Part shown: positions 47,006 through 50,705 of the stretch, piece by piece
Numbering within the stretch: position 1 is the first letter of the stretch
Layout of the letters: every line of letters starts with the position of its first letter
Assembly (NCBI RefSeq): GCF_018977255.1
Contig: NW_024704747.1
Coordinates: 22,754,001 to 22,811,860, forward strand
Source: Callorhinchus milii
Taxonomy: Eukaryota
DNA: 57,860 nt
Direction of reading: 5' to 3'
The notes under the pieces: model-generated
The model's input: the letters and a program-made list of their open reading frames with translations, nothing else
Database searches by the model: none
What the model was told of the DNA's origin: nothing
Program-made: the position numbers and the translations under genes

Positions 47006-50000
47006 ATGAAGGCTATCATACTGGCAGCTGGTTATGGCACGAGGCTGAACCGTGACCTCCAGAGTCAGACCACGGTGGAGCTGCGGCCCCTCCTGGGCAC
47101 CCCCAAGCCGCTTCTACCGGTTGGGCCCCGGCCGCTCATCAGTCACTGGATGGCGGCCGTCGAGGAGGACGGCGGCGCTATTGACGCGGTTTACGTTGTT
47201 GTAGGAAAACGAATAACACGTTCACGCTTCGACTTGCGTCCCTTCGGGAAAACTCTCGCTCGACACCGAATCGCGCAAAGGATTGCTGTTTGTTTGCTTG
47301 TTTGTTTGTTTGTTGTTGTTGTTGTTAACGTTAAATGCTGATTCAGTCCCCAAACACTTGTGCTGGCGAACGAAAATAAGCGCTCGGCGGTCCGAGTCAC
47401 GGAGCTCTTTCTGCTGGTTTTGTTAGTAACGTTAACGTTAATATTACAATCAATCCACCGCTGTTTTGTGGGCGATTGCCCGACAAAATCTACAGTCAAT
47501 TCACTTTACAGTGTACTCTGTGAAGCGCTTTGAGACGTCCTGGAAGAGGTGATAAGGCGCTATATCAAAATGCAAGGATTATTATTACTGCTATTTGGTC
47601 TGTAGGAGTAATGGGATATTTGCGGTGAGGCCCTGAGCATAACGTTTAACAAAGGGTAGCAAATATTTTTTTCATCCCCCACTAAAAGAAAAAAATGTTA
47701 TTGTAGAACTAAATAGCATGGCTTTCGTACTTCTCTGTGCAAGGCGCAACTTCTACTTGAGCAAAAAGATTTCATCTCTATGAGTTCCGAAGCAGTAGTG
47801 AGGATTATTATTTCTTTCAGACAAACGATCTCTACTATGAGAGGTTTCAGGATTGGGCAAAAGAATTTAAACTGGTTCAAGTTTTGAATGATGGAACAAG
47901 AAGGAATGAGGTGAGTACCGAACTCGCAATAAACACAATGGATAAATCAAACTTTAAGAAAGGACACACTATTAGTGAAGGTGTTGTTCAGCTTCCAATA
48001 GGGAAGAGATACAACTAAGATTATTTATTTTAACAAAGATGCTGTTTCATAACATTATGTGTGGGATAACTTCTGGATAAAAGTATTATAAGCCTGTTTG
48101 TTTCAAACATCAACCAAAACTACTGTACAGAAAGGCTAAAGGGGAAAGAGAAAGAAGTTTTTATTAGTTCAAAATTTTGCTTAACTGTTCTAAATTTAAA
48201 ACTTATGAATGAAACCGTTTACATTGTGCACCTACAAATTTGAATTATTTAAACTGTACCTAGTAAAATTTTATTCTGAACTAAGGATTTTAACTGTAAT
48301 TTTTTTCCCCTCGCCTTACAGGAACGGTTGGGTGCCATAGCTTGTCTGCAACTTGCAATTGATAAATTTAACATCAATGATCACATATTGGTTATTGGCG
48401 GGTAAGCAATTAACATAGAACTAGGTGGTAGAAGCACTTGTACAGCCACATGCAGTTGGGACTTAGGCATTTGTCGATTTTAAAACTGGGCAAATTCATT
48501 AGGTTTTTGTATGTGGCAATAGTTTGTTGCAGTAATTTGAAAATTCATGAAACAATGAGATAGAAATGGTTTAGAACTGTTTGGTAGTTTTGAGGAACAT
48601 CCTTGCATCTCACTGGTTGCTAGACACAGAGGTCCATTGTAATAAATGGAAATAGATTTAAGGGAGAATACAGAATTAAAGAAAGAGTATACTGAATTTC
48701 TATCCAACTTATCTGTTCTTGAGTCCCCTGTATACTATATGCATTAGCTGAATTTTTTTTTAATTTTTCTTGCTGCTGTTTATAATTTACCTTTCTGTTA
48801 TCTTACTTTTTCTATTACACATTCAGTTAAGATTCTTTTTGAGATTTGATTTGTATCTTTAATTTTTTAAACTCTTTTAGCCACTGAGATATTTGTTCCT
48901 CTATATTACTCCTTTTCTAAGGAATAGATCCACAAACTTTCACTGTCAGTTTAAATTGTTGTCCAGCTCTGCCACTCATTTGCGCTCTGAGATGATAACC
49001 TGCACGAAGGAGGCTGTATAAATTCAAGTTGTTGTTTAAAAAGGTTTTTATTTATTTTCCAATTTTGCTTCTCTCCAAATCATTCCTTCAAGTTTCAAAG
49101 TTTTCTTTTCTAAAATTTGGCAGCACATTTTGGTTGACTTTACCACTCCCAAAATAAAATGTGTAAAATAATCACTTGAAAGTTTTGCTTAAAATCTGGT
49201 TTCTTTTTAGTTGTTAAATGTACCTCTCTGAATAAAAGTGAAAATTAAAAACTGAAAATTGAACATGACTATTTCATGTTATTTTATTGCGTGCTCTAAG
49301 TTGTAACAAATAATATTTTAATAACTATTTCTGATAACCAATTCTGTGTTATTGTACCTTCCTCAGTGACACACTATTCTATGATGATTTCAGCCTCTCA
49401 GATGTCATCACAAAATTTGTTGAGCTACAGAAGACTAATTGTGACAGCAATCTAGTTCTGTCTTACTTGTGCAAAGATGAAGGTTGGTTCAAAATAGAAC
49501 TACAGAAATTTGCAGCGCAGAAGGCCATTTGGCCTAATATGTGTTCTGGCTCTTTGAAAGTACAATCCATTGAGTTCAATTTACCCATTTTTTCTCCCAT
49601 TCTAAATGTATCATTAAAGTGCCCCACTCTTTTTGAAACTGACTTATAGGGAAACAAATCTAACACTATTTCTACACTCAACAGAAACTACAAAGTTTGG
49701 GATTTTAGAAGTCGACGAAAACTTCAAAGTCACTGCATTTAAAGAAAAACCCAGCTCCACCCAAACAACATCTCGCAGAGCAGTGAGTGTTTAATATTTT
49801 CATAAATTGTAAATTGACACGTTCCTCGACCACATGTTGTACAAAAAGAAACACTCAGGCACACACACCAGTTTGTATGAAATGATATTCAAGTAACTGG
49901 TTATAATATTGAATTTTTGGTTAAGATTTTACTGTATTAAATGCAAATATGTTAGTATTTAAATTAGTAAATAGAATATCTATTTCTTTTCCAGTGTCCT

Positions 50001-50705
50001 TGTTTTTATGTGTACTCAAAAAACACAATTCCATTGATTGCAAAATTTCTTCAAGAAAAACAGGTAAGGAATTGCTGGTAGTTGAAAAGTAGCTAAAACC
50101 TGATTTTTAAATCAATAACTAGCTTCCCAGATGGTTGGAAAGTATCAAGACTATGATTCAACAATCGATTCTGAATAGCCACTGAACTATTTTACTTAGT
50201 GGTAAATTGGAAACTTGTGCTGCTGTCTCCAACATGGGATTTGATGAAGAGACTATAAAAAGTGGGAAACATTTAAAAACAGTATAAATGAATAGCTGTT
50301 TAGTATTTGACCAGTATTTAAAGTTGATGCGAAACCAAATGTCTACATTGTTGCTTTTCATCAGGCCTGGTGTACAATATTGACCAGGTGTACAATATTG
50401 CAAATTTCCACAATGCAACAACCTATCTTCAGACCCATTATATTTTAACATTCAACAGAATACACCCTTGGAAGAGAAGGATGCACCTGGAAACTTCTTA
50501 TCCTGGGTCCACACGAGGTAAGTTGTTGCTTTGCAGTGATCATTTCACAGTTCATTTAACATTTACATTGCATCCATTTTTCTTCCTACATTGCAGAAAG
50601 CCAGTCTTTGCTCAACATATATCTGGGCGCTTTGATGTCGGAAATCTTCCATCATACATTGACTGTAACAAATATTTTCAGAAGCGTCAAGATACAACTG
50701 CTTAA
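47006..50705 (+). CDS. Stand-alone sugar-1-phosphate nucleotidyltransferase (NTP_transferase/GT-A fold), 271 aa; exons 47006-47200, 47821-47910, 48322-48401, 49367-49482, 49685-49782, 49995-50063, 50459-50517, 50597-50705
   Basis: MKAIILAAGYGTRL..PKPLLPVG nucleotide-binding signature, VIGGDTLF, FGILEVD..FKEKP, DAPGNF, RFDVG. Eight exons with GT-AG introns, phases consistent, 816 nt with no stops. Confidence 0.92.
47447..47588 (+). mobile_element. SINE 3' fragment
   Basis: CAGTCAATTCACTTTACAG..GTGAAGCGCTTTGAGACGTC..GCAAGGATTATT. Confidence 0.8.

What the first reader, a model, noticed from the sequence alone, without database searches (positions are those of the whole stretch)
47006..50705. 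Intact orphan sugar-nucleotidyltransferase gene between ANKAR and ASNSD1, apparently absent from the human locus
Seen: eight exons splice into an open 271-aa protein: MKAIILAAGYGTRLNRDLQSQTTVELRPLLGTPKPLLPVGPRPLISHWMAAVEEDGGAIDAVYVVTNDLYYERFQDWAKEFKLVQVLNDGTRRNEERLGAIACLQLAIDKFNINDHILVIGGDTLFYDDFSLSDVITKFVELQKTNCDSNLVLSYLCKDEETTKFGILEVDENFKVTAFKEKPSSTQTTSRRACPCFYVYSKNTIPLIAKFLQEKQNTPLEEKDAPGNFLSWVHTRKPVFAQHISGRFDVGNLPSYIDCNKYFQKRQDTTA. The ORF track shows only its two ends. Known: GxGTR/PK, GD, EKP and DVG motifs define RmlA/GMPP-type NDP-sugar pyrophosphorylases. It lacks the beta-helix tail of GMPPA/B, and human ASNSD1 and ANKAR are adjacent with no such gene. From memory it resembles the N-terminal domain of zebrafish glucuronokinase/putative uridyl pyrophosphorylase (gkup). 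Inference: an uncharacterised nucleotide-sugar salvage enzyme (for example GlcA-1-P to UDP-GlcA) retained in fishes and lost in mammals.
Basis: partly seen in the sequence, partly recalled or inferred. Interest (0 to 1): 0.8.

Follow-up and report, generated by a model that had tools for sequence, protein, structure and literature searches.

The report
Candidate missing glucuronate-salvage pyrophosphorylase
This elephant-shark gene is real, spliced and already in databases under conflicting automatic names, and it likely encodes the missing enzyme that would finish recycling glucuronic acid into a building block of cartilage sugars in fishes and amphibians, a step that the known two-part fish enzyme barely performs in the test tube.

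Summary
The eight-exon, 271-aa gene is real: all seven junctions appear in one run's contigs, and the protein equals RefSeq XP_007888325.1 (Callorhinchus milii), the orthologue of zebrafish zgc:136439. It is no orphan: orthologues occur in sharks, ray-finned fishes, amphibians and several invertebrate phyla, with no amniote among named hits. It is a single RmlA/GalU-fold domain with an invariant, intact active site and fits no curated enzyme family. New here: the same domain is fused, intact, to glucuronokinase-type kinases in eight eukaryote-type proteins, while three GKUP-type fusions carry a decayed copy lacking active-site residues; primer-encoded ends tie zebrafish and Xenopus GKUP to that decayed clade. 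Published GKUP pyrophosphorylase activity is nearly nil. Best reading (0.5): this gene is the working UTP:glucuronate-1-phosphate uridylyltransferase, and GKUP's own domain is a pseudo-enzyme. The substrate is inferred, not shown; prokaryotic relatives also sit by galactokinase and UDP-glucose dehydrogenase, and no vertebrate GKUP sequence could be fetched.

The parts
47006..47200 (+). Exon 1 coding part (aa 1-65): start codon, glycine-rich NTP loop with Arg13 (G9-L14 at 47030-47047), eukaryote-type helical insert, Lys34 (47105-47107)
   Evidence: junction to exon 2 in X5
47821..47910 (+). Exon 2 (aa 66-95): subfamily residues Asn67, Trp77, Asp89, Asn94 around the predicted nucleobase loop
   Evidence: junction in X3, X5
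48322..48401 (+). Exon 3 (aa 96-122): Arg97-Leu-Gly99 and the strand before the first metal-binding Asp
   Evidence: junction in X5
49367..49482 (+). Exon 4 (aa 122-161): Asp123 (49368-49370), invariant in 248 of 248 aligned domains
   Evidence: junction in X5, X9
49685..49782 (+). Exon 5 (aa 161-193): Gly166 and the Glu181-Lys182-Pro183 sugar-phosphate motif (49744-49752)
   Evidence: junction in X3, X5, X9
49995..50063 (+). Exon 6 (aa 194-216): Tyr198
   Evidence: junction in X3, X5, X9
50459..50517 (+). Exon 7 (aa 217-236): Asp224 (50480-50482) and Gly227; skipped in RefSeq isoform X2
   Evidence: junction in X3, X5, X9
50597..50705 (+). Exon 8 coding part (aa 236-271): Arg247 (50628-50630), last metal-binding Asp249 (50634-50636), stop TAA
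47001..47500 (.). CpG-rich block over exon 1 (GC 0.53, CpG observed/expected 1.19); likely promoter region, head to head with ANKAR
   Evidence: promoter role inferred
50706..51642 (+). Probable 3' UTR; AATAAA at 51384 and 51637; one X5 contig runs unbroken 50595-51560; the true end is not determined because contigs are unstranded and ASNSD1 converges

Best explanation
The gene encodes a spliced, single-domain nucleotidyltransferase with a complete RmlA/GalU-type active site that likely joins UTP to glucuronic acid 1-phosphate to make UDP-glucuronic acid, and so would supply the second step of the glucuronate salvage route in place of the likely dead N-terminal domain of GKUP. Mechanism, by analogy with RmlA and GalU (established chemistry, recalled): the NTP binds first at the Gly-rich loop (Arg13, Lys34), Asp123 and Asp249 hold Mg2+, the sugar phosphate is held by Glu181/Lys182, Gly166, Tyr198 and Asp224, and its phosphate attacks the alpha-phosphate in one displacement, releasing pyrophosphate. 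Shown: gene structure, splicing, fold model, invariance of these residues, fusions of the same domain to glucuronokinase-type kinases, decay of the same residues in three GKUP-type fusions. Inferred: catalysis, UTP as donor, glucuronate 1-phosphate as acceptor, that vertebrate GKUP belongs to the decayed clade, and that both genes were lost together in amniotes.
For: (1) Intact site: R13, K34, D123, E181, K182, D224 in 121 of 121 vertebrate domains, R247 and D249 in 120 of 121 (one truncated isoform); 241-248 of 248 across the family. (2) Fold: pLDDT 97.2; Z 26.3, rmsd 2.5, 234 aligned to RmlA 4ecm, Z 25.3 to GalU 6mnu. (3) Fusion evidence: the intact domain is fused to a glucuronokinase-type GHMP kinase in P0037, P0038, P0188, P0235, P0291, P0296, P0297 and L160; JGI names P0235 glucuronokinase and its top Atlas cluster is chordate GKUP, 0.98. 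(4) Decayed paralogue: of 3 full fusions among 160 kinase loci, L164/P0330 lacks the equivalents of G11, R13, D224, D249; L162/P0331 lacks G11, D224 and has Glu or Leu at D249; partial L166/P0332 lacks D224 and D249. They form a 100-support pair inside the 97-support eukaryotic clade. (5) Link to zebrafish: primers in Table S1 of PMC3938481, translated by eye, give an N-terminus MICILLVAG for zebrafish (first eight residues the same in Xenopus) and a domain end DYTKWL; matching patterns occur in P0330 and P0331 (N-terminal) and P0332 (C-terminal) and in 0 of 248 intact domains. (6) PMC3938481 found only a trace of UDP-GlcA after 70 h, none for Xenopus in standard assays, and suggested an unidentified partner protein. 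(7) Co-distribution: stand-alone copies in chordates and Mucoromycota, where GKUP fusions also cluster, the fungal ones with PF00483 in only 31% of members; both reported or seen absent from mammals. (8) Uridine: prokaryotic relatives sit beside UDP-glucose dehydrogenase (18 of 154 loci; 27 of 80), galactokinase or a galactokinase-like kinase (15 of 154), GalM (6), GalT (3); bacterial glucuronokinase-type kinases pair with GalU-like enzymes (83 separate partners in 160 loci; GalU best match in 4 of 4 tested, 2 above cut-off).
Against: No assay exists. No vertebrate GKUP sequence was obtained, so its decay rests on three unnamed metagenome stand-ins and primer-length motifs; whether Callorhinchus has gkup at all was not testable. 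PMC3938481 did detect a trace of UDP-GlcA with full-length zebrafish GKUP, and states that some substrate-binding residues are conserved. The family is also fused to GalE (P0200, above the galE cut-off), to true galactokinase (P0153), to an aldo-keto reductase (P0158), DJ-1 (P0138), MetK and UGDH, and its commonest prokaryotic neighbour is PtsI (35 of 154; 34 of 80), which says nothing about a sugar. Beside UGDH most prokaryotic members carry Trp, not Arg, at position 247 (13 of 18; 24 of 27) and are more simply GalU equivalents. The Arg247/uronate link is phylogenetically weak: 3 independent pairs, p 0.5; L345 has a glucuronokinase-like kinase (30% identity) next to a Trp-type enzyme; plain H. 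pylori GalU also has Arg there (alignment). Bacterial glucuronokinase-type kinases use GalU-like partners rather than this subfamily (75 of 75 aligned).
Confidence: 0.5

Rival explanations
1. It is a broad UDP-sugar pyrophosphorylase, or a UTP-dependent galactose- or glucose-1-phosphate uridylyltransferase, that serves several sugar-1-kinases (a small-fold counterpart of plant USP); glucuronate is one substrate or none.
For: galK-gene-galM order in 6 Acidobacteria loci, GalT neighbours in 3 loci, GalE in 2; eukaryote-type GalE fusion P0200 nested among stand-alone animal-type sequences; true GalK fusion P0153; RmlA-type enzymes are promiscuous (passage in PMC9415975); a promiscuous bacterial GalK plus uridyltransferase salvage is described (passages in PMC11267548).
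Against: All 7 true-GalK loci are Trp-type and lie in a clade far from the eukaryotes; 8 eukaryote-type kinase fusions are glucuronokinase-type and none seen is galactokinase-type; vertebrates have GALT and UGP2 (recalled); strict invariance of the pocket fits a narrow substrate.
Confidence: 0.27
2. It uses another nucleotide or acceptor (a GDP/ADP/dTDP sugar, or a non-sugar phosphate), as the automatic names imply, and the link to glucuronokinase is only ancestral.
For: Structural scores do not separate RmlA, GalU, GMPPB and a phosphonate cytidylyltransferase (Z 26.3-24.0); the nucleobase loop (N88-G99) is unlike any curated family and could not be read; PtsI, MetK, PGI/PMI and MtnA neighbours in prokaryotes.
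Against: No curated cut-off reached for GlgC, RmlA, GMPP, HddC, MurU or cytidylyltransferases; every informative sugar neighbour or fusion is a UDP-sugar enzyme.
Confidence: 0.12
3. GKUP is self-sufficient in vivo and this gene is a redundant or regulatory paralogue with little flux of its own.
For: Trace UDP-GlcA was seen with full-length zebrafish GKUP, not with either domain alone (PMC3938481); the decayed domains keep K34, D123 and E181-K182; two annotated isoforms of this gene lack the C-terminal Asp (P0305, P0306) and intron-retaining contigs are seen.
Against: It is this gene, not the fused domain, that keeps every active-site residue across 121 vertebrate domains; the full splice form is supported in three studies.
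Confidence: 0.08

Closest known systems
Zebrafish zgc:136439 orthogroup (RefSeq XP_007888325.1, UniRef A0A4W3J8E9; Xenopus laevis LOC100127296)
   Same: It is this gene: identical to the Callorhinchus record, 56-78% identical to 119 listed relatives, gene tree follows the vertebrate groups.
   Different: Nothing in sequence; the records carry conflicting automatic names (adenylyl-, thymidylyl-, guanylyl-, uridylyltransferase, GlmU-like) and I found no paper on it.
GKUP N-terminal domain (DrUP; zebrafish glucuronokinase with putative uridyl pyrophosphorylase, PMC3938481)
   Same: Same eukaryotic subfamily and length (about 260 aa); stand-in GKUP-type domains align over 251 columns, 30% identity.
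   Different: Stand-alone, no GHMP kinase; keeps G11, R13, D224, D249 that stand-in GKUP domains have lost in part or whole. Vertebrate GKUP itself was not in hand.
RmlA (glucose-1-phosphate thymidylyltransferase) and bacterial GalU
   Same: Same fold and catalytic residues (Z 26.3 and 25.3); same size class, no beta-helix.
   Different: 18-24% identity; far below TIGR01207 and TIGR01099 cut-offs; own motifs (N67, W77, R97-L-G99, D224-A-x-G227) and a helical insert after the Gly-rich loop.
Active/inactive nucleotidyltransferase pairs: GMPPB/GMPPA, GalU/GalF, GlgC/GlgD, VTC1/KJC2
   Same: A catalytic subunit beside a decayed paralogue (roles recalled; the structures 7d72 and 8yre and the models TIGR01105, TIGR02092 appeared).
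   Different: Here the decayed copy is fused to the upstream kinase; binding between the two is not shown.
Plant glucuronokinase plus UDP-sugar pyrophosphorylase (USP)
   Same: Same proposed two-step route from GlcA to UDP-GlcA with two separate genes (PMC2823444 passages; PMC3938481).
   Different: USP is a large enzyme of another branch (Z 16.2 to Leishmania USP 3oh0 against 26.3 for RmlA).

Membership tests
NTP_transferase (PF00483) / RmlA-GalU-type sugar-1-phosphate nucleotidyltransferases | Pfam gathering score | tested here: met
   86.6 bits against 21.2, residues 2-263
NTP_transferase (PF00483) / RmlA-GalU-type sugar-1-phosphate nucleotidyltransferases | GT-A-like single-domain fold | tested here: met
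   Model pLDDT 97.2; Z 26.3, rmsd 2.5, 234 aligned to 4ecm; Foldseek TM 0.67-0.75 to RmlA, GalU, AGPase
NTP_transferase (PF00483) / RmlA-GalU-type sugar-1-phosphate nucleotidyltransferases | Gly-loop Arg, Lys, two metal-binding Asp, Glu-Lys-Pro motif | tested here: met
   R13, K34, D123, E181, K182, D249 aligned to RmlA/GalU and invariant; their roles are recalled from RmlA
NTP_transferase (PF00483) / RmlA-GalU-type sugar-1-phosphate nucleotidyltransferases | Measured NDP-sugar pyrophosphorylase activity | not testable with these tools
   needs an enzyme assay
zgc:136439 orthogroup | One-to-one orthology and conserved position | tested here: met
   Named so by UniRef; chondrichthyan, amphibian and actinopterygian groups each one side of a branch, 98-99 support; frog read-through from OSGEPL1 (P0100) and a hake gene model running into antisense ASNSD1 (P0137) match this window's neighbours
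GKUP (glucuronokinase with putative uridyl pyrophosphorylase) | C-terminal GHMP glucuronokinase domain in the same chain | tested here: not met
   Stop at 50703-50705, convergent ASNSD1 follows, no GHMP match in the protein or of kinase parts of P0235/P0330 in the window
GKUP (glucuronokinase with putative uridyl pyrophosphorylase) | Homologous nucleotidyltransferase domain of the same eukaryotic clade | tested here: met
   By stand-ins only: P0330/P0331 inside the 97-support eukaryotic clade, profile E 7.7e-44
GKUP (glucuronokinase with putative uridyl pyrophosphorylase) | Direct comparison with zebrafish or Callorhinchus GKUP sequence | not testable with these tools
   Not returned; no whole genome held; only primer-encoded ends seen
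RmlA (TIGR01207) | Curated cut-off 360.65 | tested here: not met
   37.9 bits
GalU (TIGR01099) | Curated cut-off 326.8 | tested here: not met
   31 bits
GlgC, the current RefSeq name (TIGR02091) | Curated cut-off 424.9 and C-terminal beta-helix | tested here: not met
   39.6 bits; no beta-helix in the 271-residue model
GMPPA/GMPPB | C-terminal left-handed beta-helix | tested here: not met
   Whole model aligns to residues 1-241 of the 360-residue GMPPB chain 7d72_K; NF052502 43.2 against 440
UGP2/USP-type large eukaryotic pyrophosphorylases | Pfam match of that family and multi-domain size | tested here: not met
   Only PF00483, PF12804 and a weak PF01128 match at E 0.001; 271 aa
UDP-glucuronate pyrophosphorylase (EC 2.7.7.44, number recalled) | Preference for UTP and GlcA-1-P | tested here: inconclusive
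   Fusion and context evidence in favour, Arg247 test not significant after phylogeny, GalE and GalK links against

The most novel reading that the evidence does not exclude
Animal glucuronate salvage is a three-domain, two-gene machine: GKUP supplies the kinase and a dead pyrophosphorylase domain that docks this protein, as GMPPA does GMPPB, so that GlcA-1-P is handed on and UDP-GlcA feeds back; both genes were lost together at the base of amniotes, and only the pair would bypass UGDH deficiency. A predicted complex of the window's protein with a stand-in decayed domain gave weak support only: score 0.36 against best control 0.00, runs 0.36/0.36/0.00, contact agreement at least 0%, partner pLDDT at least 84; the mark was reached by 51 of 78 solved and 2 of 108 mismatched pairs, and passes at 0.60 or under were 5 of 78 solved and all 4 passing mismatches; partner from another organism, alignments not used, like oligomers are solved.
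Probability: 0.2. Interest if true: 0.8.

Novelty: new variant of a known kind. Interest (0 to 1): 0.6.

Why it matters
The only study of the animal glucuronate salvage route (PMC3938481) ended on a puzzle: the kinase worked, the fused pyrophosphorylase was almost inactive under many conditions, and the authors proposed an unidentified partner while stating that zebrafish has no other homologue. This gene is a concrete candidate, and one cheap assay decides it. [quoted passage not shown]

Tried and rejected
Own-genome search for gkup or paralogues: no whole genome held. Vertebrate GKUP was not among 23 longer hits nor identified among the best 150 of 2477 representatives (30 proteins from that list or one search were looked up by name). 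Run search: no RNA holder on record; ten runs are only guessed to be RNA, so expression rests on the splice joints, not on depth. Viral contigs held no GKUP-type relative (88 pattern matches, 0 confirmed). Locus search with the 100-sequence alignment found no usable pattern. Arg247 as a uronate determinant: raw split is sharp (R in 7 of 7 scorable galactokinase-like loci, W in 7 of 7 GalK, 6 of 6 GalM, 3 of 3 GalT, 34 of 34 scorable PtsI; all 154: W 103, C 36, R 10, other or unscored 5, two of the R calls doubtful; then R in 4 of 80 further loci, 3 of them the 3 galactokinase-like loci, at least 5 of the 80 repeating earlier contigs), but it is mostly one clade, so I keep it as a lead only. 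Five duplicate loci were dropped before the 154 count. Kinase-domain tree did not place the stand-ins with any named animal; P0332 and six loci dropped out for lack of the pattern. The engineering paper on RmlA W224H was not held; that Trp224 lines the C6 pocket is recalled. Literature: 'zgc 136439' 0 papers; '136439' 1779 papers, the 20 listed unrelated by title; glucuronokinase searches gave no paper on this gene in their listings; supplements were not searched and may list it. Rejected readings: artefact or pseudogene (open frame, spliced, invariant residues); detached half of a split GKUP (separate long-lived clade with different motif state); the RefSeq name glucose-1-phosphate adenylyltransferase; recent transfer from bacteria (eukaryotic clade spans sponge to chimaera and protists).
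Full report
Observation. The sequence at 47006-50705 holds eight exons with GT-AG introns that splice to 816 nt, 271 codons and a TAA. 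Contigs of four public runs were laid on 44000-53000 (4 of 14 listed): X5 skips all 7 introns at the predicted ends, X3 and X9 4 of 7 each, X11 none. The tool only guesses that X3, X5 and X9 (three studies) are RNA; exact GT..AG skips that are absent from X11 are what shows splicing. Exon 1 lies in a CpG-rich block.

Surroundings. The order in the window is ORMDL-family gene (+), an intronless deaminase ORF (-), TsaD/OSGEPL1-type gene (+), ANKAR-type gene (-), this gene (+), ASNSD1-type gene (-) (the gene symbols are my labels from the domain matches and recalled order). The position is old: a frog isoform annotated as the mitochondrial threonylcarbamoyltransferase begins with residues matching the window's OSGEPL1 exon at 22359-22580 and continues into this protein (P0100), and a hake gene model runs from this protein into the antisense of ASNSD1's large exon (P0137). 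Two cattle gene lists give OSGEPL1, ANKAR, ASNSD1 with nothing between (passages of PMC4464877 and PMC7464420) and an unordered horse list names no such gene (PMC9526059). The human order is recalled, not tested.

Distribution. The full-length search found 1164 homologues among 1963 candidates; of the 120 listed, 97 are named and all are cartilaginous fishes, ray-finned fishes or amphibians (frogs, salamanders, caecilians), 56-78% identical. Of 27 unnamed sequences put in a tree, 24 nest within teleosts or frogs, one is sister to the other ray-finned fishes, one falls with the invertebrate outgroup and one (P0047) is sister to amphibians and of unknown origin. Stand-alone relatives are named from Capitella, Sycon, Oikopleura, Styela, two crustaceans and a colponemid, and a fused one from Patiria; an Atlas cluster of 266 aa is mostly Mucoromycota. 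No amniote was seen, but 1044 hits were not listed and coelacanth and lungfish were not seen by name either, so amniote loss is likely, not proven.

What kind of protein. Pfam PF00483 is met (86.6 bits against 21.2); none of 21 NCBIfam matches comes near its cut-off; the best solved relatives by sequence are RmlA-type at E 2e-5. The AlphaFold model from a 100-sequence alignment has pLDDT 97.2 and one domain; it matches RmlA (Z 26.3, rmsd 2.5, 234 aligned), GalU (25.3) and GMPPB (24.0, residues 1-241 of 360) about equally, so fold does not give the substrate. In 248 aligned domains R13, K34, D123, E181, K182, D224 and D249 are present in 241-248, with subfamily marks N67, W77, R97, G99, Y198, G227; in 121 vertebrate domains all 19 positions checked are invariant apart from one truncated isoform. 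It is therefore very likely an active enzyme of its own subfamily.

Link to glucuronokinase. The intact domain is fused to a GHMP kinase of the glucuronokinase type in seven stored proteins and in locus L160. One is named glucuronokinase by JGI and has chordate GKUP as its top Atlas cluster. Scanning for that kinase gave 160 loci: 86 had a nucleotidyltransferase, 3 fused and 83 separate. The 75 separate partners that were long enough to align are GalU-like, not of this subfamily (GalU best match in 4 of 4 tested, 2 above cut-off), in agreement with earlier notes of this scan. Two of the three fusions (L164/P0330, L162/P0331) and a partial one (L166/P0332) are different: they keep K34, D123 and E181-K182 where covered but have lost D224 and D249 (Glu or Leu in P0331), G11 in both full ones and R13 in P0330. 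These decayed domains are 30% identical to the window's protein and form a 100-support pair inside the 97-support eukaryotic clade. Their organisms are unknown.

Tie to the published enzyme. I read parts 1 and 3-6 of 7 of PMC3938481, passages and Table S1; its figures are not held. The kinase domain of zebrafish GKUP is active and specific for glucuronate; the pyrophosphorylase domain gave nothing in standard assays, nothing in yeast, nothing for Xenopus, and a trace after 70 h; the authors proposed an unidentified partner and wrote that zebrafish has no other homologue, while noting separate transcripts in Latimeria and sea urchin. Their cloning primers, translated by eye, give the start MICILLVAG and the domain end DYTKWL. 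Matching patterns occur in P0330 and P0331 (start) and P0332 (end) and in 0 of 248 intact domains. This places zebrafish and Xenopus GKUP in the decayed clade by short motifs only; the decisive residues of zebrafish GKUP were not seen in any call.

Prokaryotic context. Around 154 distinct prokaryotic members (five duplicates dropped) the neighbours were PtsI 35, UDP-glucose dehydrogenase 18, galactokinase or galactokinase-like kinase 15, MetK 11, PGI/PMI 7, GalM 6, GalT 3; in 80 more (at least five repeats) UGDH 27 and a UXS-like dehydratase 16 (the UXS and GAE labels are mine). Every informative sugar neighbour is a UDP-sugar enzyme, which favours UTP. The members beside a divergent galactokinase-like kinase (below the GalK cut-off), often with UGDH and an epimerase whose best hits include 5u4q and 6zl6 (recalled as UDP-glucuronate 4-epimerases), carry Arg at the position of R247, while those beside true GalK, GalM, GalT or PtsI carry Trp. 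The RmlA W224H variant is reported to widen sugar tolerance (one passage, PMC9415975); that this residue lines the C6 pocket is recalled. Against using this as proof: only 3 independent pairs, p 0.5, mostly one clade, one Trp-type enzyme beside a glucuronokinase-like kinase (L345), and Arg in plain H. pylori GalU.

Mechanism and odds. Most likely (0.5) the protein is the UTP:GlcA-1-P uridylyltransferase that completes glucuronate salvage. The simplest history is an intact kinase fusion in early eukaryotes, a duplication, decay of the fused domain and retention of the free copy; the tree allows this but does not resolve the order. The main rival (0.27) is a broad or galactose/glucose-directed UDP-sugar pyrophosphorylase, supported by a GalE fusion (P0200) and galK-gene-galM clusters. 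Other donors (0.12) or a redundant role (0.08) are less likely. A predicted complex with a stand-in decayed domain passed weakly (0.36 against 0.00; one of three runs 0.00; contact agreement at least 0%; partner pLDDT at least 84; such low passes were 5 of 78 solved pairs and all 4 passing mismatches; cross-species partner; like oligomers are solved), so binding stays a hypothesis.

Novelty. The gene model is known; its function is not, in what I could search (ten searches; main texts only; subscription papers and supplements unseen). PMC6992768 (passages) still treats human homologues of the route as unproven; PMC2823444 (passages) places the loss of the kinase above amphibians; PMC11267548 was seen as passages and PMC12487334 as a listing only. 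The scan had no note on this gene, its genome's gkup or look-alike windows. I rate it a new variant of a known kind: an active free paralogue beside a likely pseudo-enzyme domain, which makes a documented open question testable with one assay. Interest 0.6.

Noticed in passing
window 13358-14428 (-): Intronless 356-aa ORF with a cytidine/deoxycytidylate deaminase domain, ADAT3-like by recall, between the ORMDL and OSGEPL1-type genes; cattle lists show no gene there, so it has moved or been inserted in one lineage.
   Followed up: partly
window 55441-55570 (+): An annotated isoform (P0306, 278 aa) swaps exon 8 for this distant exon, which lies beyond the large ASNSD1 exon on the opposite strand; the product lacks D249. 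Outside the stretch laid with reads, so untested. Isoform X2 (P0305) skips exon 7 and shifts frame.
   Followed up: partly
window 51177-51560: A contig continuous with exon 8 reaches 51560 (X5) and a contig spliced into ASNSD1 reaches 51177 (X3): the two convergent 3' UTRs probably overlap; contigs are unstranded.
   Followed up: no
window 44785-47006: ANKAR-type gene and this gene are head to head about 2.2 kb apart, with a low-complexity repeat and an assembly gap (46506-46642) between them; possibly a shared promoter.
   Followed up: no
L023, L024, L036, L040, L048, L049 (around the match): Acidobacteria have galK, this nucleotidyltransferase subfamily and galM in a row, the place GalT usually takes: a candidate UTP-dependent galactose route.
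   Followed up: partly
L014, L016, L017, L054 and others: In Verrucomicrobia, Omnitrophota and Planctomycetes the subfamily follows ptsI (35 of 154 loci), often with PGI/PMI and metK, and is fused to MetK in P0150; unexplained.
   Followed up: no
L015:3799-4998, L045, L066, L085, L122, L123, L341, L377, L391: A divergent galactokinase-like kinase, below the GalK cut-off where tested, travels with an Arg-type member of the subfamily, often with UGDH and a uronate-epimerase-like enzyme, and is fused to it in P0139-P0149: a candidate bacterial uronic-acid kinase.
   Followed up: partly
P0200, P0158, P0138, P0223, P0206: Other fusions of the domain: GalE, aldo-keto reductase (Patiria, single record), DJ-1/PfpI, ThiF, and a tandem double nucleotidyltransferase.
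   Followed up: no
window 47480-47590: A very high-copy short repeat in intron 1 (depth far above the rest in all four runs), with look-alike copies throughout the window's introns.
   Followed up: no
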